36,922 nt of DNA, taken from IMG/VR virus record IMGVR_UViG_3300009537_000075, positions 1-36,922 of that record, one strand, 5' to 3'. The stretch comes from a virus. This document shows positions 1 through 36,922 of the stretch, in pieces. The notes under the pieces were generated by a model. It was not told the DNA's origin and did no database searches. It saw nothing but the letters and a program-made list of their open reading frames with translations. Each line of letters opens with the position of its first letter. Position 1 is the stretch's first letter. Made by a program: the position numbers and the translations under genes.

Positions 1-59
1 GGAGTATTTTTCTAAAGCATTCAACACACAAGGCCTTGGGTTTCATAATCCGGGCCTTT
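1..59. repeat. Terminal direct repeat, copy 1 (identical to 36864..36922)
   Basis: Bases 1-59 match the last 59 bases of the window base for base. This implies a circular or terminally redundant unit of 36,863 bp. Confidence 0.95.
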
Positions 60-6520: not shown

Positions 6521-7291
6521 ATGGAAGAAAATCAAACATCACTTGAAGAACTGAATCAACAGGATGGTATTCCCGCCCAAGGGGATCAAATGGATTCCCA
6601 GCTTTCAGAACAGTCGCCTTCTCCGGTGGAAAAAACCCATCAACCAGAAGTAAAACCTGCAGAATCGGACCAAGAAAGGAATCTCGCGGCCTTGCGACAA
6701 GCCCGAGAACGAGCAGAACGTGAACGTGATCAACTTGCGCAGCAACTGCAGCAAATGCAGCAACAAAAACCCCAGGAAGAGCCCTATCAAGATTACTCGG
6801 TAGCTCCAGACGCACTCGTTGAGGGAAAACATCTGAGCAAATATGATCGAGAGATTAAGGCTCTGAGGGAAGAGCTACACAAGTATCAACAGCAGACGAT
6901 TTCTCAATCTGCAGAAACACGCCTAAAAACGCAGTATCCTGACTTTGATAAAGTTGTTTCGGCTGAAAATATCAATGCGTTGCGCGAATCACATCCGGAA
7001 ATAGCGCAGACCTTGAGTACCTCATCCGATTTGTATAATCAGGGAGCCTCGGCATATAAAGTGATTAAGAGTCTCGGTATTTATAGAGAAGACACGTATG
7101 CCAAAGATCGTCAGAATGCTCACGTAAACGCTAACAAACCTCGTCCTTTGGCAAGCGTAGCACCAAGCCAGGGGGATTCTCCTTTATCTAATGCCAACGC
7201 ATTTGCTACCGGTGGAAAGAGAGCGGATGAGATGAGCGATCATCAAAAACAACTGTTTCAAGAGATGCAGGAGTTGCGTAAAAATTATTAA
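6521..7291 (+). CDS. Scaffolding-like protein (256 aa)
   Basis: Q/E/R-rich and predicted helical (ERAERERDQLAQQLQQMQQQ). It lies immediately upstream of the major capsid gene, with RBS GAGGAG. Confidence 0.5.
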   Translation: MEENQTSLEELNQQDGIPAQGDQMDSQLSEQSPSPVEKTHQPEVKPAESDQERNLAALRQARERAERERDQLAQQLQQMQQQKPQEEPYQDYSVAPDALVEGKHLSKYDREIKALREELHKYQQQTISQSAETRLKTQYPDFDKVVSAENINALRESHPEIAQTLSTSSDLYNQGASAYKVIKSLGIYREDTYAKDRQNAHVNANKPRPLASVAPSQGDSPLSNANAFATGGKRADEMSDHQKQLFQEMQELRKNY

Positions 7292-18375: not shown

Positions 18376-21300
18376 ATGATGGCAGTAAACAGGACCCGTA
18401 GAAATATTTCATATGGTGTAACAAACGCCCTACAGCAGGTGCCACCTCAACCTATTTTGGCTCAACGTGATCCAAGTACGAGTGATATAGCAGAACTTGG
18501 TACTCTGTGGGTCAATACCGCAGACAATCTATGGTATATACTTACCTCGGCTACCGGGGGATCATCTACTTGGGCAGGACAATCTGCAGGTAGTGGTACT
18601 TTTGCTGCTGTTACTGCTACAACAGGAGATATTACAGCTGATCAGGGCGACCTGGTGGTAACACTCGGAAATCTGGATGTTACTAATGGTAATGTGACTG
18701 TTGGAGGAGATCTTACCGTTACTGGTACAACGACGGTAAATGGTGATTTTGACCTTACATCAGCAGCTCTTATTGATTTTGTATCTACACTGAACGCTGC
18801 TCCATCCATTCTTCTTCATGCAAATGGTGGTGTAAACGAACAAATTAGATTGCATTCAGATCAGGGAACCGCAGTCAATTCTATTCAGCTCGATTCTGAT
18901 GTTGGTGGCATTACCCTTCTTTCCGGACTCGCCTCAGCTGACGCTATTAATCTATCTGCTACCGCGGGTGGTGTAGATGTTGACGGTGCGTTGCAGGTAA
19001 ATATTGCCTCCTCTCAAGCAGCAGCTGACGCTGTTGTAGTTAGCGCCTCCGCAGGTGGTGTTGATGTTACTGCTAGTGGTGCAGGCTTAGATGTAGATAT
19101 TACCAGCTCAACGGGAAGAGTAATTCAGAGTGCTGGTGAAGCGGTAGCTGATGCTATTCAACTTCTTGCTCCTGCTGGTGGCGTGTTAGCTCAGGGTATC
19201 TTAAAGATGGATATTCAGACTTCTCAAGCGGCTGCAGATGCTATTGATCTGAACGCTTCTGCTGGGGGTATAACATTGGCTGCTGGAGGAGTGGGCGCAA
19301 CAGGAGATATTACCCTTACGTCTTCCGCCGGTTCAATCAGGCTTGATGCAGACCAAGCTATTTTAAATGCAATCGAACTTGATGCAAGTACTGCCGGCGG
19401 TATTGTCATGTCGGCTGCGCTAGATTTAATCTGTCTCATTGATGGTCAAATACGGTTAGTTTCTGATGATGCTGCAGCAAATGCTGTTCGTCTAGAGGCT
19501 ACTGATACTGTGGGTGGGGTTGATATAGATTCTGGTACTGGCGGTTTCGATGTTGATACTACAGGGCGACTTACTTTAACAAGTACCGAGACGTCTTTCC
19601 AGGCAATAGACCTTGATGCTGTTACTGGTGGTGGTGGCTATACGCTCAATACAGGTACTGGTGGTATTACTGACACAACATCCGGAATACTGACTCTGGA
19701 TAGTACTCGAGCAGGTGCTGGAAGTATTGTAGTAAATGCCTCAGGTGCAACTGGTGGGCTTCAAGTAGACGCTGGAAGTGGTGGTATTGCTATTGGCGTA
19801 ACCGGTGATTGTACTCCTATATCGCTTGGTGATGTCGTTCCTATTGCAAGTAGAACATTTACTCTTGCTGGCGGGACAATTTCAGGTGCGTTTACTGACA
19901 CTATTGATATCGGTGCCGATGGCGTTGATTCAAATGCCGGTGCAACCAAAATAGTAAATATTCTTTCTGGTTCAACAACGCTTGGAAGCCAAACGGTTAA
20001 TGTTGGAACTGGTGATCGTATTTCTGGTACAAGCCGAGTAAATATTTCTACTGGAAGTGGAACCAAGAATGTATTTATTGGTAATGCTGATGTGCTTACA
20101 AGTTTGCATGTAGATGCTCAGGTCCTTATTAATGATAGTACTAACGGTAACGTTACTATTAATGACGGTTCATCAACTGGTACTCTTCAAATGGGGAACA
20201 CAACCGCTGGTGGTTCTGTTGCTCTTGATAGCTCGGTAGATATTGCTATTGATGCTGGTACAGCAAGTTATTTCGTGACCCAAACTGGCGATCTTTCTCT
20301 AACAGCAACTGCTGGATCATTAAACTTAAGAGGCGGTGAAGCTGTAGCTGATGCCGTTCTTATAGAAAGTACTAATGCTGCAGGTGGTATCGATATAAAT
20401 GCAGGAAGCGCCGGTATTAACATTTCTACAGCAAGTGGTCCATTCGTGCTGGCAACCGGAACCGGAGACCTTTCATTGGGTGCCGATGCTACAGAACATA
20501 ACGTAACAATTGGTAGCCAAGTTGATACCAGCACAGTAACACTTCAAGCCGGTACTGGCGGCATCATTATGGATTCGTTAGATGAAATACTGCTTGATGC
20601 TGATGGTGTACTGGAACTCAATTCATCTGCTGGCGCAATTGGTATTGGTAACGATGCTGATGCTCAAGCTATCAATATTGGAACAGGGGCGGCTGCCCGT
20701 ACTATTACTGTTGGTAACGCAACCGGCGCTACTACCGTTCTTTTGCATGCTGGTACTGCTGGTATTGGCATTGGTACAACTTCAGTTGCTATGCCAATCT
20801 TCATCGGGAACGACACAGGAAATACAAACATAGCACTCGTTTCAGGTACAGGAGCCATTGGTATTGGTGCGAATGCTATTGCCCACCCTATCGTTATAGG
20901 AAACGGCACTGGCGCCACATCTGTTACTATTGATTCCGGTACTGCTGGTATTGATATTGGTACAAATGCAATTGCTCAACCTATCACGATAGGTAACAGC
21001 ACTGGTGCTACAGCTGTTACTCTTGATTCTGGTAGCGGTGGCGTCAATATTGGTACAAATGCGGTGGCTCAAACGATTACTATAGGTAATGGAACTGGTG
21101 CTACCGGTATTTCTCTGGATGCTGGTACTGGTCAGATTGATATTGGTACAAATACTATTGCTCACGGTATTAACATTGGTAACGGTACGGGTACTACAAC
21201 AGTTACTATTAATTCTGGTACTGGTGGTGTCAATATTGGTACAAATGGTGTGGACCAAACAATTACTCTAGGTAACGAAACTGGTGCTACAACTGTTACT

Positions 21301-22221
21301 CTGGATGCTGGTACTGGTGGTGTCAATGTTGGTGCAAATGCAGTTGCTCATGCTGTCACCATAGGTAACGGCGAGACAGGCTCGTCGGTTACTATTGATG
21401 GTGGTACTTCTGGTATTAGCATCGGTACAAATGCAGTTTCTCATGCTGTCACCATAGGTAATGGTGAGACAGGATCATCGGTTACTATTGATGGTGGTAC
21501 TTCTGGTATTGGTATCGGTACAAATGCAGTTGCCCACGCGGTTACGATTGGTAATGGAACTGGTGCTACTGGCGTTAACGTTTTTGCTGGTACTGCTGGT
21601 GTCAATATTGGTACAAATTCTATTGCTCATGCTGTAACCATAGGTAACAGTACGGGTACTTCATCGGTTACTATTGATGGTGGTACTGCTGGTATCGATA
21701 TTGGTACAAATGCAGTTGGTCAACCTATCACTATAGGTAATGGAACTAGCAATACAGCAGTTGCTATTGAGACCGGAACAGGAGCATTAAGTCTCGGAAC
21801 GAACGCTGTTGAACATAACGTAACAATTGGTAGTCTTACAGGCGCTTCTCTTGTGACAATTAGGAGTGGTGCTAGTGGCGGAATAGCTCTGCAGGCACAA
21901 GACGGTGCATTAAACGTAACTCCGGCTACTAATTCTGTGGCAGGAACGTCGCTCACTTTGAATGCTCGTATGGGTGTAGCAACATTTACGGGGCAAACAA
22001 CAGGTGCTGGATCAACACTTGATCTTACTATTACGAACTCGATCTTAGCAGCTGGTGATGGCGTATTTGTAACTGTAAGCAACAAAGGAACCAATGATGC
22101 AGATATGACCTTAGAAGGGGTTATAACTGAGACGGCAGGTACATTGACAATCCATACTAAAAACAATGGCGCAGCAGCATTGAATGGTGATGTAATCGTT
22201 ACGTTCTGGATTCCTAACTAG
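18376..22221 (+). CDS. Giant repetitive beta-helix tail fibre/spike protein (1281 aa)
   Basis: RBS AAGGAG. G/T/A/I/V-rich sequence with periodic units of about 31 aa throughout. Its N-terminal ~70 aa are shared with the 25337 fibre. A hairpin terminator follows. Confidence 0.8.
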   Translation: MMAVNRTRRNISYGVTNALQQVPPQPILAQRDPSTSDIAELGTLWVNTADNLWYILTSATGGSSTWAGQSAGSGTFAAVTATTGDITADQGDLVVTLGNLDVTNGNVTVGGDLTVTGTTTVNGDFDLTSAALIDFVSTLNAAPSILLHANGGVNEQIRLHSDQGTAVNSIQLDSDVGGITLLSGLASADAINLSATAGGVDVDGALQVNIASSQAAADAVVVSASAGGVDVTASGAGLDVDITSSTGRVIQSAGEAVADAIQLLAPAGGVLAQGILKMDIQTSQAAADAIDLNASAGGITLAAGGVGATGDITLTSSAGSIRLDADQAILNAIELDASTAGGIVMSAALDLICLIDGQIRLVSDDAAANAVRLEATDTVGGVDIDSGTGGFDVDTTGRLTLTSTETSFQAIDLDAVTGGGGYTLNTGTGGITDTTSGILTLDSTRAGAGSIVVNASGATGGLQVDAGSGGIAIGVTGDCTPISLGDVVPIASRTFTLAGGTISGAFTDTIDIGADGVDSNAGATKIVNILSGSTTLGSQTVNVGTGDRISGTSRVNISTGSGTKNVFIGNADVLTSLHVDAQVLINDSTNGNVTINDGSSTGTLQMGNTTAGGSVALDSSVDIAIDAGTASYFVTQTGDLSLTATAGSLNLRGGEAVADAVLIESTNAAGGIDINAGSAGINISTASGPFVLATGTGDLSLGADATEHNVTIGSQVDTSTVTLQAGTGGIIMDSLDEILLDADGVLELNSSAGAIGIGNDADAQAINIGTGAAARTITVGNATGATTVLLHAGTAGIGIGTTSVAMPIFIGNDTGNTNIALVSGTGAIGIGANAIAHPIVIGNGTGATSVTIDSGTAGIDIGTNAIAQPITIGNSTGATAVTLDSGSGGVNIGTNAVAQTITIGNGTGATGISLDAGTGQIDIGTNTIAHGINIGNGTGTTTVTINSGTGGVNIGTNGVDQTITLGNETGATTVTLDAGTGGVNVGANAVAHAVTIGNGETGSSVTIDGGTSGISIGTNAVSHAVTIGNGETGSSVTIDGGTSGIGIGTNAVAHAVTIGNGTGATGVNVFAGTAGVNIGTNSIAHAVTIGNSTGTSSVTIDGGTAGIDIGTNAVGQPITIGNGTSNTAVAIETGTGALSLGTNAVEHNVTIGSLTGASLVTIRSGASGGIALQAQDGALNVTPATNSVAGTSLTLNARMGVATFTGQTTGAGSTLDLTITNSILAAGDGVFVTVSNKGTNDADMTLEGVITETAGTLTIHTKNNGAAALNGDVIVTFWIPN
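20770..21885 (+). repeat. Twelve in-frame tandem 93-bp (31-aa) repeats inside the giant fibre gene
   Basis: Unit consensus IGTNA(V/I)A(H/Q)x(V/I)TIGN(G/S)TGATxVT(I/L)DxGTxG(I/V)x. Unit boundaries run 20770, 20863, ... 21793. Adjacent units 21328-21420 and 21421-21513 are about 89% identical at the DNA level. Confidence 0.9.
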
Positions 22222-27285: not shown

Positions 27286-27292
27286 GAGTGTG

Positions 27293-28504
27293 ATGGCAAC
27301 CATAAATAAAATTAATAGTTCCCTTCCTATAGAAATATCATTTGGTGGTACCGAAAATTCATCCTTGATTTCGTATGCTGTTATTTGCGGAGGGACGACA
27401 CCAACAAGCCCGCTTCAACAAGTTGCGTCTGTTGGATCATCTGGAGAAGTTTTAACATCAGAGGGTGCCGCAACACTTCCTATATTTAGAGATCTTCCAA
27501 CATTTTTTCAACCACTTGCTTCTGATCCAGCGAGTCCTTCTATTGGTGATGTATGGTTCAATACCACTACTAACTTATTTAAAGGAGCAATTGACAGCGG
27601 AGGAGCTGGTGCGTGGGTTATAAAAGCTAACCTTAATAGAGGTATCCGCGGAAACCTGATGTTTGGCACAGAAAATGACTGCATAAGTGCATGCGGATCT
27701 ACTGGCACTCCAAGAAGGTTTACGGAGCGATATAATTTAATTGCTGATTCTTGGACTTCCAAGTCACTAACGATTACAGCACGATTTGAAGGTGGTGCGG
27801 GTGGCCTCCCTGACTCCGGCGGAATATTTGGGGGAACCCTTACTAGTGGATCGCCAACTGGCTTAGCAGAAAGATATGACGGCATAGGAGATGCTTGGAG
27901 TGCTACTGCCAATATGCCCGTTCCGCGAACTTCGTTAGCCGGAGCTGGATCTACAGCTAACGATTGGCTCGCTTTTGGTGGCAGAAGTGGAGGCACCGCA
28001 TTTGATAATGTTCAACGATATGATGGCATAGGAAATTCGTGGGCAACGAAAGCTAATCTATTGCAACCTCGTCAGTTTCCTGCAGGGGGTGGTTCTGCTG
28101 GAGATGCAATGGCTTTTACTGGTAGAAGTTCTGGTGGAATCGATCTATCAACTACCGAACGCTATGATGGCGTCGGAGATTCCTGGTCTCTAAAAGCAAA
28201 TATTAATACTCCGCGAAATCAAGGAGGCGGGGGTGGCCAGTCTGGAGGTTCGGTACTTTCGTTTGGAGGGTCTCCAACCGGCCCAGTAAGTATAAGTTCA
28301 CGTACTGAAGAATACGATGGGATAGCAAATACATGGACAATCCGTACTGGTATGAATAACGCAAGGTCTTCAAATGGAGGCACAGGATCTTCGGGAACAG
28401 GAGGCATAACAGCGGGTGGAATAACAACACTAACAGGATTTAGTGATTCTACAGAAGTATATGGTGGTTCTCCTCCAACTATCGTGACATTCACCGTTGT
28501 ATAA
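27293..28504 (+). CDS. Fibre-tip protein with six-blade Kelch-like beta-propeller (403 aa)
   Basis: ATG 27293 after AGGAG (the track's GTG 27290 is too close to the RBS). The N-terminal ~98 aa are paralogous to 26947..27285. Six repeats of about 48 aa follow, of form R....G.G....L.FGG........ERYDGIGD.W....N...P. Confidence 0.75.
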   Translation: MATINKINSSLPIEISFGGTENSSLISYAVICGGTTPTSPLQQVASVGSSGEVLTSEGAATLPIFRDLPTFFQPLASDPASPSIGDVWFNTTTNLFKGAIDSGGAGAWVIKANLNRGIRGNLMFGTENDCISACGSTGTPRRFTERYNLIADSWTSKSLTITARFEGGAGGLPDSGGIFGGTLTSGSPTGLAERYDGIGDAWSATANMPVPRTSLAGAGSTANDWLAFGGRSGGTAFDNVQRYDGIGNSWATKANLLQPRQFPAGGGSAGDAMAFTGRSSGGIDLSTTERYDGVGDSWSLKANINTPRNQGGGGGQSGGSVLSFGGSPTGPVSISSRTEEYDGIANTWTIRTGMNNARSSNGGTGSSGTGGITAGGITTLTGFSDSTEVYGGSPPTIVTFTVV

Positions 28505-28516
28505 CAGTAGGATTTT

Positions 28517-29131
28517 ATGGATCGATTTAAATATCTCTCAAGCGCGCTTGGATCAACAGATGTTGATAAGCTCACGAGCATCAAATCAGAACTACAAGAC
28601 AGTTGGAATAAAGCCCAAGTATTTAGAACGGAGACTGAAGCGCGTGTTGGAGTTTTAAACATCTTTAAATTTCCTACAAAAGGTGCACAATATTGGCAAT
28701 CGGTTCGTGAACAATCAGCACAGTTTGATGAGCTTGTTGCGTTGTCATTTGAATTAAGAAGAAAAAAGATAGATCTCGAAGAATTGAAAGAAGAGATCAA
28801 AAACTGCACAGGCTATGAACTTGCGAGAAAGGAAGTTGATTTGGATGAGCTCCTCTTTCAAATTGCATGTGGGGAAAAGATTGCCCGAGATCGCGTGAGA
28901 GAGATTCTTCAGTGGTCGGAAATAAAAAAAGAGTTAAATGATGGTTCTTTTGATGACAAAAACGCAAATACACACCAACGAGAGTCTTTGTTTCGGAGCG
29001 CCCTAAAGAGAGCGCAGGTGGCGAATGATGAAATGACATCTGAAGAAAAGCTTTCTATTCAGGGTATTTTGTATCAATTGAAAGATGACGCCTCAAATCA
29101 AAAAATCCTTGAAAGCATTAAAAAGAAGTAA
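28517..29131 (+). CDS. Hypothetical helical/coiled-coil protein (204 aa)
   Basis: RBS TAGGA. Charged helical sequence (ELRRKKIDLEELKEEIKN). No family recognised. Confidence 0.6.
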   Translation: MDRFKYLSSALGSTDVDKLTSIKSELQDSWNKAQVFRTETEARVGVLNIFKFPTKGAQYWQSVREQSAQFDELVALSFELRRKKIDLEELKEEIKNCTGYELARKEVDLDELLFQIACGEKIARDRVREILQWSEIKKELNDGSFDDKNANTHQRESLFRSALKRAQVANDEMTSEEKLSIQGILYQLKDDASNQKILESIKKK

Positions 29132-29139
29132 AGGAATAC

Positions 29140-29469
29140 ATGAATATATTACCTTCTTCGATACGTTTTATAAAAAATGTAGAAGATATGGATAATGCAT
29201 CCGGCAATATATTCAATCTTCGTCCGGTTACGTTTGAGCATATTCAATCCGTATCAGATATTAGAAAATATGGACTTGTTGCGGAAGAGGTTGAAAAAGT
29301 AATGCCCAGCCTTGTCTTATATGATAAGTCAGAAAGCCCAGAATCGGTTCGTTATCACGAATTGCCGGTCTTATTGTTAAATGAGCTAAAGAAATTGTCC
29401 GCGAAAGTGAAGAAATTAGAAGAAACTATTTCTAAATGTTGTTGCCAGGAGAAATGCCATGAAATTTAA
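29140..29469 (+). CDS. Free-standing Peptidase_S74-like intramolecular-chaperone domain protein (109 aa)
   Basis: SSIRFIKNVEDMDNASGNIFNLRPVTF......YGLVAEEVEKVMPSLVLYD....ESVRYHELPVLLLNELKKLSAKVKKLEE matches the S74 consensus (SDrrlK..i....l..LrpvtY....GfiAQEve.v.PelV....v.Y..l..lli.aikeL). The Ser7-Lys12 spacing equals the catalytic dyad spacing. Confidence 0.75.
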   Translation: MNILPSSIRFIKNVEDMDNASGNIFNLRPVTFEHIQSVSDIRKYGLVAEEVEKVMPSLVLYDKSESPESVRYHELPVLLLNELKKLSAKVKKLEETISKCCCQEKCHEI

Positions 29470-29518
29470 TACGATGTGGTTCAAAATAGCATCCATTGTT
29501 ATTGTTGCGTGCCAATAA
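29459..29518 (+). pseudogene. 5' fragment (19 codons) of a split small membrane-protein gene
   Basis: RBS AGGAGA, ATG 29459, translation MKFNTMWFKIASIVIVACQ*. Codons 7-17 are encoded by the 33-bp repeat, which recurs in frame at 30411. Confidence 0.55.
29476..29508 (+). repeat. 33-bp perfect direct repeat, left copy
   Basis: GTGGTTCAAAATAGCATCCATTGTTATTGTTGC is identical to 30411..30443. Confidence 0.95.
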
Positions 29519-29840
29519 GGTGAAAATTGCCCTGTTTTTCTCCACCATACAGAAAGCGTTTGTAAGTTTTTCCGGTATCATCGGTTGAAATATATTGTAG
29601 AGATCTTATTTCGTTTTTTGTGTTTCGTAGGGGAATAACGAGGGATGGGTACCCCTGAGGATTTAAACCAAAACGTATTTCGGGTGTAGGTTCTATACCC
29701 TTTTGTTTTGTATAGCGAATATAGTCGTTTGATGGTGGGATTATGTCATAGTTATTCCATAGTTGTAGAGCCTTTTGTGCCGTCTTATCGCATACTTGTT
29801 TTCTTTGTCGTTCTGCGATTTCCTTCTGTTTAAGGAACAA
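29499..29840 (-). pseudogene. N-terminal fragment of a TraC/P4-alpha-like (DUF7146-Toprim type) primase
   Basis: AQKALQLWNN....YIRYTKQKGIEPTPEIRFG....YPSLVIPLRN..NEIRSLQYISTDD.GKTYKRFLYGGEKQGNFHLIG follows the pre-Toprim region of these primases and stops just where the Toprim domain should begin. The stop lies inside the 33-bp repeat. The only in-frame start is TTG, with an out-of-frame ATG upstream. Confidence 0.45.
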
Positions 29841-29871
29841 CCGATGAAGTTCTTTTTTTTTGCTTCATCCA

Positions 29872-30105
29872 TCATTGATTTTCCGCTGTGCTTCCGTCTC
29901 TTATATGATTTTTAATCCAGTTGATAACGCTTTCCTTGGGATACATAACTCGTCGTCCAAACTTGATCCATGGAGGAGAGGTGCCTCGTACTCGTGACAG
30001 ATAGACAGAGTTGTTACTTGGATATAATCCAAGGGAAACAAGGTTCTCTGAGCTCAAGAATTCAGGCATTCCTTCAAATCGAGGGATTTTTTGTTTTTCT
30101 TGCAT
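29872..30105 (-). CDS. AlpA/excisionase-family helix-turn-helix protein (77 aa)
   Basis: RBS AAGGAGA. FLSSENLVSLGLYPSNNSVYLSRVRGTSPPWIKFGRRVMYPKESVINWIK fits the HTH_17/MerR-type excisionase pattern. Confidence 0.65.
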   Translation of the reverse strand: MQEKQKIPRFEGMPEFLSSENLVSLGLYPSNNSVYLSRVRGTSPPWIKFGRRVMYPKESVINWIKNHIRDGSTAENQ

Positions 30106-30336
30106 GGGATCTCCTTTCGAAGATTCCTATGAAGGTTGAAGAGGGTCATTCTCGGTTTGTGTATGTATTTGTACACATACGAAGAATGAGGTAAGATGAG
30201 GATACACTTGTTGGTGGGTATATCCCACAACTTTGGAAGCTAGCGAGCTACAACTTGCTGGCTTCCGCTTATCTTCAGACTCTCATTAGGAATCTCTGAT
30301 TAATAAGATATTTATGTAATTCATCATTCTTTTCCT

Positions 30337-30594
30337 TTGTCCACGATTTCCAGGTTTGTTGCAGTACTTGTGGAGTTACCTTTACATGTATTGCATCGCT
30401 CGCTCTTGCAGTGGTTCAAAATAGCATCCATTGTTATTGTTGCCGCAATTGGTATAGGATCACGCTATTTCTTTAAAGGAAAAACAGATAACATCATCGA
30501 AGAAGCTGCTGAAAAGATAATTGAGGAGAAAACCGGGAGAGACATAGATCTTTCTCCAAGTACCCCAGAAAAAAAACGACGCCACATTAAATAA
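30337..30594 (+). CDS. 3' portion of the split small membrane-protein gene (TM helix plus charged tail), with a possible new N-terminal extension
   Basis: The ORF is open from TTG 30337. From 30412 it encodes WFKIASIVIVAAIGIGSRYFFKGKTDNIIEEAAEKIIEEKTGRDIDLSPSTPEKKRRHIK. The true start is uncertain. Confidence 0.45.
   Translation: MSTISRFVAVLVELPLHVLHRSLLQWFKIASIVIVAAIGIGSRYFFKGKTDNIIEEAAEKIIEEKTGRDIDLSPSTPEKKRRHIK
30411..30443 (+). repeat. 33-bp perfect direct repeat, right copy
   Basis: Identical to 29476..29508 and in the same reading frame. Confidence 0.95.
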
Positions 30595-30597
30595 GAA

Positions 30598-30627
30598 CTG
30601 CGCCTGAATAAATAACTTCAGGCGCAG
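30598..30627. terminator. Bidirectional terminator-like hairpin between convergent genes
   Basis: Perfect 11-bp stem CTGCGCCTGAA (30598-30608) with TTCAGGCGCAG (30617-30627), 8-nt loop. It lies between 30594(+) and 30655(-). Confidence 0.6.
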
Positions 30628-30654
30628 CCATTAAGCAGTGGAGTTTTTTAATAT

Positions 30655-30906
30655 TTAACGAGCTTCTTTTAATAAATAAACATCTAAGCACCGCTTCACA
30701 AAATGCTCTTTCATCCAAAATTCACCGAGGGACGACTCTAAAAACTCTCCTAGTGTTACCCACCTGGAAAACCCAAATCGTCTAACCTGGATGAAATATG
30801 TTGGCATTCGTCCACCAACTTTCCAGATGGTTCCTACGGGATGTCTATCGTGAATGGTTGGTTGTTTTGTGTGAACAATTATGGAGGCTCTCATAGTAAC
30901 CCCCAT
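30655..30906 (-). CDS. Hypothetical protein (83 aa)
   Basis: Last gene of the minus-strand early operon, downstream of erf. The start could instead be the internal ATG (MRASIIV). Confidence 0.5.
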   Translation of the reverse strand: MGVTMRASIIVHTKQPTIHDRHPVGTIWKVGGRMPTYFIQVRRFGFSRWVTLGEFLESSLGEFWMKEHFVKRCLDVYLLKEAR

Positions 30907-30918
30907 TTTTTTGATTTG

Positions 30919-31662
30919 TCATCTTCTTCCCTTCCTGAGTTCTTTAATCTCTCTAATTCGCTTGATGGTAACCATGTATTTTGATTTTGGCAAATCTGCT
31001 AATGATTGCAGTTGGAGCTTATCAAGGACTTCTTCTACGAGGTCTTCTGCGTCAGCGAGTTCGTATTCCAGTTCTTCGAGTTGTTCTTTGGTGACCGTCT
31101 CAGGGCTCTCTTGTTTAGGATTGTAGGCATTTGATGGGCCTTTTGCGATAATATCACGAGCAGGTATCATGGCGACTTCGGCGTCATCGTCGGTGGAGTC
31201 CTGGGATACGGTAACTCCCAGGAGGGCCATTGCAGCATATCTTTTATGGTAGCTCATGGTAGAGCCATATGTTTGTGCATCATTTTTAGCCGGTACAATG
31301 CGATTACGAGCTTCGAGCCACTGTCCGCTTGAGTGCATGAGTTTAGAGTGGAGCATCGTGGCTCCTTCTTTGGTGATCTGTGTTTGCTGGATGAAGGCAA
31401 GACTGTTCTTTGCCAATGCAGGACGAACAGCTTTCATTATGGCATCGAGATCTGCGTAGCCAGATTTAAAGTAGGGATTCTCCCGGTTAAATCCGACTGA
31501 TTTATATTCGCCTTGCGCTTTTGCCAATGCCTGTGCGAGTTCGTTTATGTTTTCGGACGAATAGGCCGTTTCTTTTTCGAAAGAGGAGAGAGCGGCAATT
31601 TGGCGAGATAGTTTAGCAATTGCATCAAGGATTGTGGTGTATTCGAATGTTTTATCTTCCAC
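30919..31662 (-). CDS. erf: ERF-family single-strand annealing recombinase
   Basis: 247 aa. LAKAQGEYKSVGFNRENPYFKSGYADLDAIMKAVRPALAKNSL...MLHSKLMHSSGQW...AQTYGSTMSYHKRYAAMALLGV...DDDAE matches the ERF core motifs. Confidence 0.8.
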   Translation of the reverse strand: MEDKTFEYTTILDAIAKLSRQIAALSSFEKETAYSSENINELAQALAKAQGEYKSVGFNRENPYFKSGYADLDAIMKAVRPALAKNSLAFIQQTQITKEGATMLHSKLMHSSGQWLEARNRIVPAKNDAQTYGSTMSYHKRYAAMALLGVTVSQDSTDDDAEVAMIPARDIIAKGPSNAYNPKQESPETVTKEQLEELEYELADAEDLVEEVLDKLQLQSLADLPKSKYMVTIKRIREIKELRKGRR

Positions 31663-31838
31663 TAGAGCACCCCGTATGAGTTTTTTTGTTTTCTTTTTAT
31701 TTCTTTTATTTCTGCTTGCAGGGACTTCATAATCTTTTCATGAGCGCCCATTACGATCTCTATGTCATTCATTATTTTCATGAGGTCTACGATCTGTTCT
31801 TGGAGAAGATCGTGCTTTGTTAGTTTCTTTTCTTTCAT
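31662..31838 (-). CDS. Hypothetical coiled-coil protein (58 aa)
   Basis: ATG 31838 is preceded by AAGGTG. The GTG at 31847 given by the track is less likely. Confidence 0.5.
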   Translation of the reverse strand: MKEKKLTKHDLLQEQIVDLMKIMNDIEIVMGAHEKIMKSLQAEIKEIKRKQKNSYGVL

Positions 31839-32347: not shown

Positions 32348-32464
32348 TTAGCGTCGTACTGAGACGCTCTGTTTTGGAGTCTTATCTCCCTTGTTTACTT
32401 TATCGGTAGGAGGAAAAGCAAGCAACGGGGTGCTTAAGAAAACAAGAATAAGGAGTTTTTTCAT
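32348..32464 (-). CDS. 38-aa secreted peptide (MKKLLILVFLSTPLLAFPPTDKVNKGDKTPKQSVSVRR)
   Basis: ATG 32464 with SD AGGA. Its 22-nt initiation region is identical to that of the 36462 gene. The track ORF extended to 32578 is an in-frame upstream artefact. Confidence 0.5.
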   Translation of the reverse strand: MKKLLILVFLSTPLLAFPPTDKVNKGDKTPKQSVSVRR

Positions 32465-32489
32465 AATCGTCCTTGTGTTGCTGAGCGCT

Positions 32490-32648
32490 CTAGGCGCCCA
32501 GTGGTTTATAATATTCAGCGTTTTTTCTGTAGTAAGCAGCTTCTTCACATTTATATGAGCAGAAATATTTAGCGCCATCTTTATCCATGCGTACCACGCT
32601 AACTTTTTTGTCTTGTTTGCATTCTTGGCAGATCGTTGTGTTTTTCAT
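32490..32648 (-). CDS. Small FCS/TRASH-like zinc-ribbon protein (52 aa), below the ORF-track cutoff
   Basis: ATG 32648 is preceded by AAAGGA. Translation is MKNTTICQECKQDKKVSVVRMDKDGAKYFCSYKCEEAAYYRKNAEYYKPLGA. It is the first gene of the leftward operon. Confidence 0.55.
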   Translation of the reverse strand: MKNTTICQECKQDKKVSVVRMDKDGAKYFCSYKCEEAAYYRKNAEYYKPLGA

Positions 32649-32687
32649 AATCGTCCTTTGAGTTTTATTCTTTGCTCTTGACTTATT

Positions 32688-32715
32688 AATATGGTATAAT
32701 ATTATTATATTAATG
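32688..32715 (+). promoter_or_regulatory. Rightward early promoter
   Basis: TTGACT (32688-32693), 16-nt spacer, TATTAT (32710-32715). There is also an extended -10 TGgTATAAT at 32702-32710. It lies 25 nt upstream of the HTH gene. Confidence 0.5.
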
Positions 32716-35516: not shown

Positions 35517-35803
35517 AAAAGAAGAAAAAAGGCACTCCTCGATCTATCTCTATGATAGCCGGGAGCCGGTATGGACGGTGGACCCTTTTAAGAAGATCTC
35601 GTTATAATAAACCGAGGGCTGCTATGTGGATCTGTGTATGTGATTGTGGGAAACAGGATTCCGTTCGTGGTACAAGTTTACGAATAGGAGAATCAAAGCA
35701 GTGCCGAAACTGTCAGCAAAAACAACTCTTTAAAACAAACACTCATTACACTAGAATGAAAAAAACACGCGGTCCCAAATCTCACTCTTGGAAGGATAAG
35801 TAA
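35513..35803 (+). CDS. Basic zinc-ribbon protein (96 aa)
   Basis: ATGA-coupled ATG 35513. GSRYGRWTLL...WICVCDCGKQDSVRGTSLRIGESKQCRNC is a pattern common in small phage DNA-binding or HNH-associated proteins. Confidence 0.5.
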   Translation: MKKKKKGTPRSISMIAGSRYGRWTLLRRSRYNKPRAAMWICVCDCGKQDSVRGTSLRIGESKQCRNCQQKQLFKTNTHYTRMKKTRGPKSHSWKDK

Positions 35804-36300
35804 TGGCTAAAAAAATCTCTAACCCTAGCAAAATAATAGATAAGGCCGCAAAGCGTAAGTGGGATTCTTATAAGCATATTGGATCCTGGAAGATGACTCC
35901 TTACTCTATGGAGGGCATAAAACGACTAGCAACAGAATTCATCGACTGGGTGCAGACAAGCAAATTCCTTTATCTCGAACGTTTTTGGCTCGAACGTGGG
36001 ATTGGCACTAAAACCATGCAAGATATGCGCGCTCGATGCCCTGAACTCGAAGCCGCTTATGCTTTTGGAAAAGAATGGATGGCCATGAAACGCGAAGAAG
36101 CTATACACGCAAAAGAGGCCGACCGAGAAACAATAGGTTGGAGACAGCCTGCCTATTCGTACGAAGTAAGAGAGGTAGGCGAATGGAAATCCTCACTAAG
36201 ACAAAAAGAAGCAGAGAAGGGATCGGGAAATATAACGGTGCAGATGGAGCGGTACCCCGACTCACCAGACGTCCCTCTTAAACCACAGGGAACGGATTAA
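35803..36300 (+). CDS. terS: Terminase small subunit-like protein (165 aa)
   Basis: RBS AAGGATAAG. IKRLATEFIDWVQTSKFLYLERFWLERGIGTKTMQDMRARCPELEAAYAFGKEWMAMKREE fits the HTH-type small-terminase pattern (L..F....GI...T......PE...A...gK......RE). It lies upstream of terL on the circular map. Confidence 0.5.
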   Translation: MAKKISNPSKIIDKAAKRKWDSYKHIGSWKMTPYSMEGIKRLATEFIDWVQTSKFLYLERFWLERGIGTKTMQDMRARCPELEAAYAFGKEWMAMKREEAIHAKEADRETIGWRQPAYSYEVREVGEWKSSLRQKEAEKGSGNITVQMERYPDSPDVPLKPQGTD

Positions 36301-36387: not shown

Positions 36388-36416
36388 TTGACTTTAATAT
36401 AGTAATAAGATAATAT
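36388..36416 (+). promoter_or_regulatory. Promoter, near-duplicate of the rightward early promoter
   Basis: TTGACT (36388-36393), 17-nt spacer, TAATAT (36411-36416). It shares TTGACTT...ATTATATTAAT with 32688-32724. Confidence 0.5.
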
Positions 36417-36461
36417 TATATTAATAGATAAAAGGTATAAACCAAAACATTAGGGACGATT

Positions 36462-36824
36462 ATGAAAAAACTCCTACTCATCATCCTGTTTTCAGGAACA
36501 ACCCTTCCACTACCCCCTAAAAGGGAAACTGAGGAACGAGAACTGAGAAGATCTCCAGAGCTCGGCGAGAGAGCTGACATGGAAGAGATCAAATCAATCG
36601 CAGAATCATTGCGGATGGAAGAGCGTTTAAAAATAGAAGAAGATATTGTTGCCGGCTGTTTAGAATGTCGTGACACCTATTTCGATCTAAGCGTTGAGCA
36701 AGAACAGCGCAAGGAGGCACAAGAGACTCTTAGATTAATACAAAGCCATCCGTACTACGAAAGCGCTATTAAGCGCAGTAGTGGTAATTTTGGTTGTATG
36801 CCGGAGTTTCCACACCAACAGTAA
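36462..36824 (+). CDS. Secreted charged protein (120 aa)
   Basis: SD GGGA/AGGA-like. Signal peptide MKKLLLIILFSGTTLPLPP, then an E/R/K-rich helical region with 3 Cys. Its initiation region is identical over 22 nt to that of 32464(-). Confidence 0.65.
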   Translation: MKKLLLIILFSGTTLPLPPKRETEERELRRSPELGERADMEEIKSIAESLRMEERLKIEEDIVAGCLECRDTYFDLSVEQEQRKEAQETLRLIQSHPYYESAIKRSSGNFGCMPEFPHQQ

Positions 36825-36863: not shown

Positions 36864-36922
36864 GGAGTATTTTTCTAAAGCATTCAACACACAAGGCCTT
36901 GGGTTTCATAATCCGGGCCTTT
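36864..36922. repeat. Terminal direct repeat, copy 2 (identical to 1..59)
   Basis: Exact 59/59 match to the window start. Confidence 0.95.

What the first reader, a model, noticed from the sequence alone, without database searches (positions are those of the whole stretch)
29459..30594. 935-bp AlpA + truncated-primase cassette bounded by perfect 33-bp direct repeats splits a small holin-like membrane-protein gene
GTGGTTCAAAATAGCATCCATTGTTATTGTTGC occurs at 29476..29508 and 30411..30443. The copies are 935 bp apart and in the same reading frame (coding WFKIASIVIVA). The left copy sits in a 19-codon ORF with a good RBS (AGGAGA, ATG 29459) that stops 8 nt after the repeat. The right copy reads on for 49 more codons to 30594. 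Removing one repeat plus the intervening DNA reconstitutes a 66-aa ORF, MKFNTMWFKIASIVIVAAIGIGSRYFFKGK...PEKKRRHIK. That product has one N-terminal TM helix plus a charged tail and lies directly after the fibre module, where lysis genes usually sit. The intervening DNA is transcribed in the opposite direction. It encodes an AlpA/excisionase-type HTH protein followed by only the pre-Toprim N-terminus of a TraC/P4-alpha-like primase. That primase ORF is cut at the repeat boundary (...FHLIG|TQQ*, with the stop inside the repeat). An alpA gene followed by a primase gene is the core layout of P4-like/PICI-like satellites and small integrative elements. I read this as a scar of integration or recombination between the phage and a satellite/plasmid-like element. 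It may have rewired expression of the membrane protein.
Basis: partly seen in the sequence, partly recalled or inferred. Interest (0 to 1): 0.8.

Follow-up and report, generated by a model that had tools for sequence, protein, structure and literature searches.

The report
Genomic-island fragment inserted in a phage gene
A 902-bp piece cut from the middle of a small bacterial integrase-regulator-primase island sits inside a small accessory membrane-protein gene of an unusual phage, flanked by a 33-bp duplication; it is most likely a scar of gene capture and not a working mobile element.

Summary
An exact 33-bp direct repeat (29476-29508 and 30411-30443) brackets 902 bp of foreign DNA. Removing the insert restores a 66-aa membrane-protein gene that is intact in related phages at the same position.

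Read on the minus strand, the insert is one contiguous internal segment of an integrase-like → AlpA/excisionase-like → primase island:
- the last ~46 codons of the integrase-like gene, cut at the right repeat (a new finding with modest statistical support);
- a spacer;
- an intact 77-aa HTH gene;
- about 120 codons of a Toprim primase, carrying a frameshift in an A9 run and cut exactly at the left repeat, just before Toprim.

The closest relatives of both genes lie side by side, with an integrase, in Babeliales, Chlamydiae and unclassified MAGs. Nothing else in the phage resembles those islands.

Because both ends cut through genes, I favour capture of an island fragment by non-site-specific recombination, with a 33-bp target duplication. 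A decayed satellite that had integrated site-specifically into the phage (helper-embedded-PICI-like) is the main rival. The "holin-like" label has no support. Reads were not available, so an assembly or population artefact cannot be excluded. Interest is modest.

The parts
29476..29508 (.). Left copy of the exact 33-bp direct repeat. It is native phage coding sequence (WFKIASIVIVA, part of the TM helix).
   Evidence: The segment aligns with the TM region of family members.
30411..30443 (.). Right copy of the exact 33-bp direct repeat.
29459..29518 (+). 5' stump of the small membrane-protein gene. It has 19 codons, keeps the native Shine-Dalgarno (AGGAGA, 29447-29452) and ATG, and stops 2 codons into the insert.
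30411..30594 (+). 3' part of the membrane-protein gene (codons 7-66 plus stop). The mechanical ORF 30337-30594 extends upstream into the insert, but neither TTG 30337 nor GTG 30370 has a Shine-Dalgarno motif.
29509..30410 (-). 902-bp foreign insert. It is one contiguous internal segment of an integrase-like → HTH regulator → primase island.
   Evidence: tblastx and tblastn: island loci L010-L015 share only this stretch with the window, apart from one weak L012 hit at 35884-36129.
30275..30415 (-). Relic of the C-terminus of an integrase-like gene (~46 codons, TARASDAIHVKVTPQVLQQTW...RV*; stop at 30275-30277), cut at the right repeat boundary.
   Evidence: BLASTP against L015 integrase residues 316-342 gives E 2e-4. 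8 of 1000 shuffles reach the score. The L010 alignment falls at the homologous position but is not significant alone.. Moderate confidence.
30106..30274 (-). Spacer between the integrase-like relic and the regulator gene. It contains a 14-bp-stem hairpin (30234-30267) and a palindromic TGTACA/TACATA motif (30161-30180) about 55-75 nt upstream of the regulator's ATG. Probably a promoter/operator region.
   Evidence: Similar motifs occur at a similar distance in L010 and L015. The hairpin is not positionally conserved. The Rfam hit there is chance-level.
29872..30105 (-). Intact 77-aa excisionase/AlpA-type (HTH_17-like) regulator gene with a good Shine-Dalgarno sequence (AAGGAG).
   Evidence: 47% identity (E 1e-23) to the L010 86-aa ORF and 52% to the L015 84-aa ORF, both lying between an integrase and a primase. 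hhalign to the L018 HTH_17 protein gives probability 92%. The 5-sequence profile hits the excisionase RdfS (8DGL) at 2.8e-5. Its own Pfam HTH_17 hit is only E 0.13.
29499..29875 (-). Primase pseudogene fragment. The probable native ATG at 29875 overlaps the regulator's stop. There is a 1-nt frame break in the A9 run at 29853-29861. Homology to full-length primases runs 29864-29508 (their residues ~100-217) and ends at the left repeat, just before Toprim.
30596..30629 (.). GC-rich hairpin between the membrane-protein gene and the convergent early (ERF) operon. Likely the native terminator of the late operon.

Best explanation
This is a gene-capture scar.

While the phage replicated in a cell carrying a small integrase-like → AlpA/Xis-like → primase genomic island, a 902-bp internal piece of that island was joined into the phage genome. 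The island is of the type now seen in Babeliales, Chlamydiae and related MAGs. The joining was by non-site-specific recombination: either two independent illegitimate or microhomology crossovers with replicating or concatemeric phage DNA, or a template switch.

The two phage-side breakpoints lay 33 bp apart within codons 6-17 of a small, dispensable, late-operon membrane-protein gene, so those 33 bp ended up on both sides of the insert.

Consequences:
- The membrane-protein gene is split. One part is a 19-codon stump that keeps the native ribosome-binding site. The other is a promoter-distal 3' part with no start signals.
- The integrase-like gene survives only as a ~46-codon tail.
- The primase survives only as ~120 frameshifted codons with no catalytic domain.
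- Only the 77-aa HTH regulator is intact.
- The cassette cannot move or replicate by itself.

Shown: the repeat; the split gene and its intact relatives; the identity and truncation of the primase piece; the synteny of the donor type; and the foreignness of the insert.
Moderately supported: the integrase-like relic.
Inferred: the recombination mechanism, the direction of capture and the loss of function.
For: - The repeat is exact and unique.
- The intact 58-77-aa homologues are the last late-strand gene after the fibre module. In most relatives they are followed directly by convergent YqaJ/ERF genes. This matches the window's synteny minus the insert.
- The repeat sequence aligns with the TM helix of family members, so it is phage target sequence.
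- Primase homology covers only 29864-29508. It ends within one codon of the repeat, whereas relatives continue ...IGTIIDGDPIFVTEGYATG into Toprim. No Toprim or helicase is present anywhere in the window.
- An integrase-like C-terminal relic abuts the other repeat, in the right strand and order.
- L010 and L015 show integrase → regulator (47-52% identity) → primase (39-47% identity).
- The island loci share only the cassette genes with the phage, apart from one weak L012 hit at 35884-36129.
- The window has no integrase homology beyond the relic, no terminal inverted repeats and no transposase.
- The phage encodes an ERF annealing protein 300 bp away. Rad52-like phage recombinases, including an Erf, are documented to drive exchanges at short or diverged homology (PMC3945230).
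- The gene family is absent from some relatives (L023), so the gene is dispensable.
Against: - No donor sequence close enough to inspect the breakpoints for microhomology was found. The best relatives are ~50% identical at protein level.
- A 33-bp duplication has no specific known enzymology and must be ascribed to chance spacing of two joints.
- 33 bp falls within the range of att identity blocks of integrative elements (7 to ~250 bp; PMC10111431).
- The integrase-like relic rests on one alignment with p about 0.01.
- No reads were available, so the junctions are not independently verified.
- In L010 and L015 a small ORF plus a ~100-aa N-terminal primase domain lie between the regulator and this primase segment. 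The window's direct junction therefore needs either a different donor architecture or a further deletion. A different architecture is supported by natural primases that start at this linker.
Confidence: 0.55

Rival explanations
1. Decayed helper-embedded island or satellite. A complete integrase-regulator-primase element integrated site-specifically into the phage's late membrane-protein gene, so that the 33-bp repeat is what remains of the attL/attR identity block. Later deletions, perhaps favoured by the capsid size limit, removed most of the integrase on one side and everything from primase codon ~121 onward on the other. Each deletion ended in or at the identity block.
For: - Satellites with an integrase-AlpA-primase core do integrate inside late genes of their helper prophages, flanked by identity blocks of 7 to ~250 bp (HE-PICIs; PMC10111431).
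- A 33-bp exact direct repeat fits an att identity block.
- The target is a late-operon gene.
- Deletions that eat into a longer identity block would automatically make the repeat boundaries coincide with the truncation points.
- In the L011 and L013 islands the regulator sits at the island edge with integrases at the far end, so one of the two deletions might not be needed.
Against: - It needs an integration plus at least two deletions, each ending at or inside the identity block and leaving overlapping remnants.
- In the closest relatives (L010, L015) the integrase is directly upstream of the regulator, and a relic of it is present, so the right end is not a natural island end.
- The cassette genes run opposite to the interrupted gene, whereas HE-PICIs are co-oriented with it.
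- No att-like repeats could be defined around the related islands.
- The integrase-like proteins of L010 and L015 may lack catalytic residues (read by eye, not tested).
Confidence: 0.2
2. Assembly or population artefact. The contig merges variants, for example a phage without the insert and a rarer recombinant or a separate molecule that shares the 33-mer, so the R-X-R arrangement is not the dominant real genome.
For: - This is a single metagenomic contig.
- Neither the 33-mer nor any exact protein of this region was found in other assemblies, so there is no independent confirmation.
- Exact short repeats are where de Bruijn graph paths can be mis-threaded.
Against: - A mis-join would still require real reads joining the 33-mer to island DNA on both sides. 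Phage-island recombinant molecules must therefore exist.
- The contig's terminal overlap is 59 bp. If that reflects the final assembly k (my inference, not tested), a 33-bp repeat would have been spanned by k-mers carrying unique flanks.
- Both junctions fall precisely so that the phage gene is restored by deleting one unit. This is expected of a true insertion and not of a random chimera.
Confidence: 0.08
3. Functional, retained cassette. The phage keeps the intact AlpA/Xis-like regulator as a moron, for example to manipulate resident integrase-regulator-primase islands or satellites in its host. The 33-bp repeats let the phage's own ERF annealing protein delete the insert precisely at low frequency, so that some progeny regain the membrane protein. 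This reading is compatible with either origin model.
For: - The 77-aa ORF is full length relative to its homologues and has a strong Shine-Dalgarno sequence and an upstream palindromic motif shared with L010 and L015.
- An ERF gene lies adjacent.
- Phage Rad52-like recombinases, including an Erf, recombine short or diverged homologies efficiently (PMC3945230).
- AlpA is the activator of PICI operons (PMC10111431).
Against: - There is no comparative evidence of conservation. No second phage carries this cassette, and no close homologue exists to measure selection.
- An intact 77-codon ORF is unremarkable if the insertion is recent.
- The neighbouring island genes are clearly dead.
Confidence: 0.12

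Closest known systems
Helper-embedded PICIs (HE-PICIs; Tommasini, Mageeney & Williams 2023, PMC10111431)
   Same: - DNA from an integrase-AlpA-primase element lies inside a late-operon gene of a phage.
- It is flanked by a short exact direct repeat.
- Removing it restores the phage gene.
   Different: - HE-PICIs are complete (~11 kb), encode an active tyrosine integrase and are co-oriented with the interrupted gene. They also carry a specific doubled TGTATTGC arm motif and occur in enterobacterial lambdoid prophages.
- Here only 902 bp remain. The integrase and primase are truncated at the repeats and the orientation is opposite.
- The relatives are in Babeliales and Chlamydiae MAGs.
Gram-negative PICI / P4-like satellite core (int-alpA-pri)
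   Same: The gene order integrase → small excisionase-type HTH → Toprim primase-helicase is found in the closest relatives (L010, L015, L018).
   Different: - No capsid-redirecting, packaging or psu/sid/delta genes were seen in the flanks inspected. No helper dependence is shown.
- The regulator is not a Pfam Phage_AlpA member.
- The L010 and L015 integrase-like proteins look atypical.
- The donors are best described as small integrative islands of unknown lifestyle.
Phage mosaicism and moron acquisition by illegitimate or relaxed homologous recombination (for example De Paepe et al. 2014, PMC3945230)
   Same: - Foreign DNA was inserted between or within phage genes, with joints that do not respect gene boundaries.
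- The phage encodes a Rad52-like (ERF) annealing protein.
   Different: - Typical morons are complete transcription units placed between genes.
- Here the insert is mostly gene fragments, lies inside a gene and is flanked by a 33-bp target duplication.
TraC/Sog- and P4-alpha-like Toprim primases (PHROG 2249; Toprim_3 + DUF3987/AAA_25/D5 helicase)
   Same: The 113/125-aa product aligns at 33-51% identity to the segment directly upstream of Toprim in these proteins.
   Different: Toprim and the helicase are absent. The reading frame is broken in an A9 run and ends in the repeat.

Membership tests
Helper-embedded PICI / integrated phage satellite | Encodes a complete (tyrosine) integrase | tested here: not met
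   Only a ~46-codon C-terminal relic is present. No other integrase homology exists in the window.
Helper-embedded PICI / integrated phage satellite | AlpA-family regulator next to the integrase | tested here: inconclusive
   An intact 77-aa HTH lies in the right position. It has remote homology to HTH_17, RdfS and AlpA but is below Pfam thresholds, with no Phage_AlpA hit.
Helper-embedded PICI / integrated phage satellite | Functional replication module (full primase / pri-rep and ori) | tested here: not met
   The primase is limited to ~120 codons, is frameshifted, and has no Toprim or helicase.
Helper-embedded PICI / integrated phage satellite | attL/attR identity block at the natural ends of the element, inside a phage late gene | tested here: inconclusive
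   A 33-bp exact direct repeat inside a late-operon gene is present, but both repeats abut truncated genes rather than element ends.
Helper-embedded PICI / integrated phage satellite | Core genes co-oriented with the interrupted late gene | tested here: not met
   The cassette genes are on the minus strand and the interrupted gene is on the plus strand. The co-orientation rule is from PMC10111431.
P4-like satellite | psu/delta/sid capsid-size genes and a full alpha primase-helicase | tested here: not met
   Nothing beyond the three fragments is present in the 902 bp, and PHROG and Pfam scans give no such hits.
Toprim DNA primase (TraC/P4-alpha-like) | Toprim catalytic domain | tested here: not met
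   Relatives have Toprim_3 at ~223-320. The window's homology stops at their residue ~217.
Excisionase/AlpA (HTH_17, MerR-like winged helix) | Significant match to the family profile | tested here: inconclusive
   - The protein's own Pfam HTH_17 hit is E 0.13 (13 bits against a cut-off of 27).
- A profile with 4 homologues hits RdfS (8DGL) at 2.8e-5, but the 3 closest homologues alone do not.
- hhalign to the L018 HTH_17 protein gives probability 92%.
- The single-sequence AF2 model was too poor to use.
Holin | Match to a holin family, or adjacency to an endolysin/spanin lysis cassette | tested here: not met
   There are no Pfam, PHROG or NCBIfam hits for the 66-aa protein or its relatives. 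No endolysin is recognisable next to it in the window or in relatives. One TM helix plus a charged tail is not specific.
Transposable element (IS/transposon) | Transposase, terminal inverted repeats, short target-site duplication | tested here: not met
   No transposase was found, and no inverted repeat was found at the insert ends. By my own recollection, a 33-bp duplication is far longer than known transposon target-site duplications.

The most novel reading that the evidence does not exclude
[quoted passage not shown] This would have happened in a host lineage, Dependentiae- or Chlamydiae-like bacteria, where neither tailed phages nor satellites are characterised. The phage would now retain the island's AlpA/Xis-like regulator to manipulate resident islands. 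The 33-bp repeats would allow ERF-mediated precise excision, toggling the late membrane protein on in part of the progeny.
Probability: 0.1. Interest if true: 0.65.

Novelty: new member of a known kind. Interest (0 to 1): 0.3.

Why it matters
The finding is a clean, datable example of how phage genomes pick up pieces of other mobile elements. One contiguous island fragment cuts through three genes, with a target duplication and an identifiable donor type. It shows that integrase-like/AlpA-like/primase islands exist in Babeliales and Chlamydiae-type genomes and exchange DNA with a very divergent tailed phage. This gives a host lead for that phage.

If the rival reading (a decayed embedded satellite) were right, it would extend the helper-embedded-satellite phenomenon well beyond enterobacterial prophages.

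As it stands, the cassette is mostly dead DNA in a dispensable gene, so the biological consequence is probably small.

Tried and rejected
- **Exact or wobble-degenerate 33-mer.** Scans of viral and metagenome contigs found nothing, so there is no independent filled site, empty site or donor.
- **blastn of 28500-31700 against GenBank phages.** No match.
- **Word-index protein searches.** Nothing found with the 113-aa and 77-aa products. Single-protein locus scans in viral contigs also found nothing, nor did the regulator profile.
- **Exact-sequence look-ups of window proteins and P0001.** None on record, so no sample or coverage information was obtained.
- **ERF-anchored search for closer phage relatives.** It gave 50-64% identical loci, and none of these nine loci (L023-L031) carries the membrane-protein gene, so none serves as an empty site. 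L023 lacks the gene at the expected position.
- **Single-sequence AlphaFold model of the 77-aa protein.** pLDDT 60 and meaningless Foldseek hits; discarded.
- **Rfam and tRNA scans of the region.** Only a chance-level ctRNA hit and no tRNA, so there is no tRNA-type att site.
- **Hairpin 30234-30267 as a conserved post-integrase terminator.** Not positionally conserved in L010 or L015; rejected.
- **Homology between the repeat and the primase sequence downstream of the breakpoint.** None beyond a 5-nt ATGGA match with L010. A tblastx extension into the repeat runs through stop codons.
- **att-like direct repeats around the related islands.** None convincing.
- **Intragenomic origin of the primase piece.** Rejected, because no other primase, Toprim or helicase homology exists in the window.
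- **Related prophage as donor.** Rejected, because the island loci share only the cassette genes with the phage.
Full report
**1. The observation**

The 33-mer GTGGTTCAAAATAGCATCCATTGTTATTGTTGC occurs exactly twice in the window, at 29476-29508 and 30411-30443. There are no further matches at up to 3 mismatches and none in 100 shuffles. The bases flanking each copy differ, so the repeat is exactly 33 bp.

The left copy lies in a 19-codon ORF (ATG 29459, MKFNTMWFKIASIVIVACQ*). This ORF keeps a Shine-Dalgarno motif (AGGAGA, 29447-29452). The right copy reads on to a stop at 30592-30594.

The window itself is a circular contig of 36,863 unique bases, because positions 1-59 equal 36864-36922.

**2. 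The interrupted gene is real, and it is intact elsewhere**

The reconstituted 66-aa protein has homologues of 58-77 aa. Each has an N-terminal TM helix and an invariant tail motif, DNxIEEAAE...TGxDIDLSPSTPEK. The repeated segment (WFKIASIVIVA) aligns with the TM helix of these homologues, so the duplicated 33 bp are native phage sequence.

In the contigs that carry these homologues (L001-L008), the gene is uninterrupted. It is the last gene on the late strand after the fibre genes. In L001-L004 it is followed directly by convergent YqaJ/ERF early genes. The window has the same arrangement: fibre module, then the gene, then a hairpin at 30596-30629, then convergent ORFs including ERF at 30919-31662. 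The only difference is the 902-bp insert.

In the closest homologue's short contig (L022) the gene is also intact. A more distant relative (L023) lacks the gene altogether, so it is accessory.

Nothing supports the 'holin' label:
- No Pfam, PHROG or NCBIfam match exists for any family member.
- No endolysin is recognisable next to the gene or anywhere in this very divergent genome. Only the terminase, portal, major head protein, ERF and RusA are identifiable.

**3. Anatomy of the insert, read on the minus strand from the right repeat to the left repeat**

*(a) Integrase-like relic.* Just inside the right repeat, one frame encodes TARASDAIHVKVTPQVLQQTWKSWTKEKNDELHKYLINQRFLMRV*, with its stop at 30275-30277.
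- It aligns with the C-terminus (residues 316-342 of 352) of the integrase-like protein of locus L015 at BLASTP E 2e-4.
- Only 8 of 1000 shuffles of the region reach that score in any frame.
- The best alignment to the L010 integrase falls at the homologous position (KVTPESLRAIW), although it is not significant alone.
- I treat this as a moderately supported relic of an integrase-like gene, cut at the repeat boundary.

*(b) Spacer (30106-30274).* This 169-nt stretch has a hairpin and a TGTACA/TACATA palindrome about 55-75 nt upstream of the next gene. Similar motifs sit at a similar distance in L010 and L015.

*(c) The 77-aa ORF (30105-29872).* It is intact and has a strong Shine-Dalgarno sequence.

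*(d) Primase fragment.* An ATG-ATG at 29875 overlaps the stop codon of the 77-aa ORF (ATGA), and an A9 run follows at 29853-29861.
- One extra A, or a -1 slip on A-AAA-AAG, would join this start to the primase frame, giving MMDEAKKKELHRLF....
- As it stands the frame is broken, and the longest ORF starts at TTG 29840 (113 aa).
- Natural primases that begin with Met at exactly this linker exist (P0115, P0069, P0081, P0137). The regulator-primase junction is therefore probably native to the donor.
- However, L010 and L015 have a small ORF plus a ~100-aa N-terminal primase domain in between, so an extra deletion cannot be excluded.

*(e) Extent of the primase homology.* It runs from 29864 to 29508 and stops within one codon of the left repeat (...GNFHLIGT|QQ*). 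Relatives continue ...IGTIIDGDPIFVTEGYATG into the Toprim domain.

**4. What the insert genes are**

*Primase fragment.*
- It hits primase PHROGs at positions ~105-200 of ~800.
- It matches TOPRIM proteins of Alteromonas phages and TraC/Sog-like proteins of more than 1400 plasmids at 33-38% identity.
- In an exhaustive HMMER search, the list of the best 150 proteins was filled at E <= 0.001. The best hits are ~50% identical, and many of them, including the complete ones among the top hits, are 780-900 aa.
- Six of the top hits were scanned against Pfam. All six carry a Toprim-family domain starting at about residue 214-226. The five that are not cut short also carry a helicase-type domain (DUF3987, AAA_25 or D5).
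- No other part of such a protein is encoded anywhere in the window.

*The 77-aa protein.*
- It has no significant hit of its own. Pfam HTH_17 gives E 0.13. There is nothing in NCBIfam, in PDB sequences or in the 5.8-billion-protein word index.
- It is 47% identical (E 1e-23) to an 86-aa ORF in L010 and 52% identical to an 84-aa ORF in L015.
- hhalign links these three proteins to the 75-aa ORF of L018, the alignment's canonical-looking excisionase-type HTH and most likely the member that scores 9e-14 against Pfam HTH_17 (probability 92%, E 7.5e-7).
- A five-sequence profile hits the solved excisionase RdfS (8DGL) at E 2.8e-5 and an AlpA-family protein (8C3T) at E 0.34.
- That PDB hit is lost when L018 and L011 are left out.
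- I conclude that the 77-aa protein is a divergent excisionase/AlpA-type winged-helix protein but not a formal family member.

**5. The donor type**

A genome scan with a profile of the primase fragment found the closest relatives in MAGs of Babeliales (L010, 47%), Chlamydiae (L011 45%, L013 42%, L014 40%) and unclassified bacteria (L012 45%, L015 39%). The layouts are:
- L010: tyrosine-integrase-family ORF (Pfam Phage_integrase, 4e-9) → 86-aa regulator → small ORF → primase.
- L015: integrase-like (39% identical to L010's) → 84-aa regulator → 67-aa ORF → 811-aa primase.
- L018 (Lysobacterales): integrase → 219-aa ORF → HTH_17 → 116-aa ORF → primase.
- L013 (Chlamydiia): the regulator sits at the island edge next to a host efflux gene, with two integrases at the far end.

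By tblastx these loci share only the cassette genes with the window, apart from one weak hit in L012. The insert is therefore foreign to the phage, and its gene order is that of a small integrase-regulator-primase island.

The same primase type also occurs in 75 IMG/VR contigs at 36% identity or less over the full-length fragment; shorter matches to its C-terminal third reach about 50%. The donor class is therefore not shown to be a satellite.

**6. How it probably arose**

Both ends of the insert cut through genes: the integrase-like gene on the right and the primase on the left. The cuts lie exactly at the repeat boundaries, and the insert is colinear with an internal stretch of the L010/L015 island type.

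The simplest history is capture of an internal island fragment by two non-site-specific joints with replicating phage DNA, or by a template switch. The two phage-side breakpoints lay 33 bp apart, which produced the duplication.

The phage's own ERF protein is a plausible catalyst of short-homology events. Rad52-like phage recombinases, including an Erf, recombine short or diverged homologies far better than RecA (PMC3945230).

I could not test for microhomology, because no close donor exists in the collections searched. The best is ~50% identical at protein level, and the repeat does not resemble the sequence that follows the breakpoint in relatives.

**7. The main rival**

Satellites with an integrase-AlpA-primase core do integrate site-specifically within late genes of helper prophages, flanked by identity blocks of 7 to ~250 bp (HE-PICIs; PMC10111431). 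A complete island could have integrated here and then lost most of its content by deletions that ended in the identity block. That would also make the repeat boundaries coincide with the truncations.

This model needs more events: an integration plus at least two deletions with overlapping remnants. The orientation is also opposite to that of all HE-PICIs. The right end is an integrase relic rather than an element end. I give this model about 0.2.

An assembly or population artefact cannot be excluded without reads, and I give it about 0.08. Even then, molecules joining the 33-mer to island DNA on both sides must exist.

**8. Consequences**

Most late genes of this phage have a Shine-Dalgarno motif. 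The 19-codon stump keeps the native one. The 3' part has neither a Shine-Dalgarno motif nor an ATG (TTG 30337 and GTG 30370 are unsupported). The full membrane protein is therefore probably not made.

The primase and integrase pieces are dead. Only the HTH regulator could be expressed. Whether it does anything, or whether the repeats allow ERF-driven precise excision, is speculation (about 0.1).

**9. Verdict**

It needs correction on several points:
- There is no evidence for a holin.
- The donor is an island type seen in Babeliales and Chlamydiae MAGs, and it is not shown to be a satellite or a plasmid.
- The insert is an internal fragment that cuts three genes, not an att-bounded cassette.

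This is an ordinary kind of event, phage mosaicism by gene capture, in an unusual phage with an informative donor. Interest is modest.

Noticed in passing
window 1-59 and 36864-36922: An exact 59-bp terminal overlap shows that the window is a complete circular (or terminally redundant) genome of 36,863 bp.
   Followed up: partly
window 29853-29875 (minus strand): ATG-ATG overlaps the stop of the 77-aa ORF and is followed by an A9 run containing the dnaX-type slippery heptamer A-AAA-AAG. One extra A or a -1 slip would open the primase frame from a coupled start. This could be a real frameshift, a programmed slip inherited from the donor, or a consensus error.
   Followed up: partly
L010 385-1476, L015 5900-6958, L013 14326-15228: The integrase-like proteins next to the regulator match only positions 6-136 of 172 of the Pfam Phage_integrase profile (measured for L010). 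They read KVTPE(L/S)LRA(T/I)W where box II HxLRH is expected, with no obvious catalytic Tyr at the usual distance. L013 has such a 300-aa paralogue beside a canonical 354-aa integrase. They may be catalytically inactive integrase-like DNA-binding proteins.
   Followed up: no
L010, L011, L013, L014 (Babeliales and Chlamydiae MAGs); L012, L015: The closest relatives of both cassette genes are in MAGs of Babeliales (Dependentiae) and Chlamydiae, lineages I recall as obligate intracellular. This is a lead, not proof, that this very divergent tailed phage infects such hosts. L012 also shares a homologue of the window's 165-aa ORF (35803-36300).
   Followed up: partly
window 18376-22221 (repeats 20639-21868): The 1281-aa ORF contains at least 11 tandem 93-nt (31-aa) Gly/Thr-rich repeats. 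These are shared with fibre-like ORFs of related contigs L001 and L006.
   Followed up: no
window 29140-29469; L023 6853-8559: The Peptidase_S74 intramolecular-chaperone domain is a separate 109-aa ORF here. In relative L023 it forms the C-terminus of a 568-aa fibre protein. The fibre gene may be split or modular in the window.
   Followed up: no
window 32451-32472 / 36454-36475 and 32641-32707 / 36403-36469: A perfect 22-nt inverted repeat and a 67-nt, 73% inverted repeat bracket the ~4-kb early-gene block. An 18-nt direct copy also occurs at 32457-32474 and 32641-32658. These may be shared promoter or RBS regions, or the ends of an invertible or exchangeable module.
   Followed up: no
window 30161-30180; L010 ~1600-1630; L015 ~7173-7201: A TGTACA/TACATA-type palindromic or repeated motif lies 50-85 nt upstream of the start of the AlpA-like gene in the window and in both closest islands. 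It is a candidate operator of the regulator.
   Followed up: partly
window 27290-28504: A 404-aa late protein with Kelch repeats (Pfam Kelch_1/2/3/6) lies in the fibre module. This is an unusual receptor-binding candidate.
   Followed up: no
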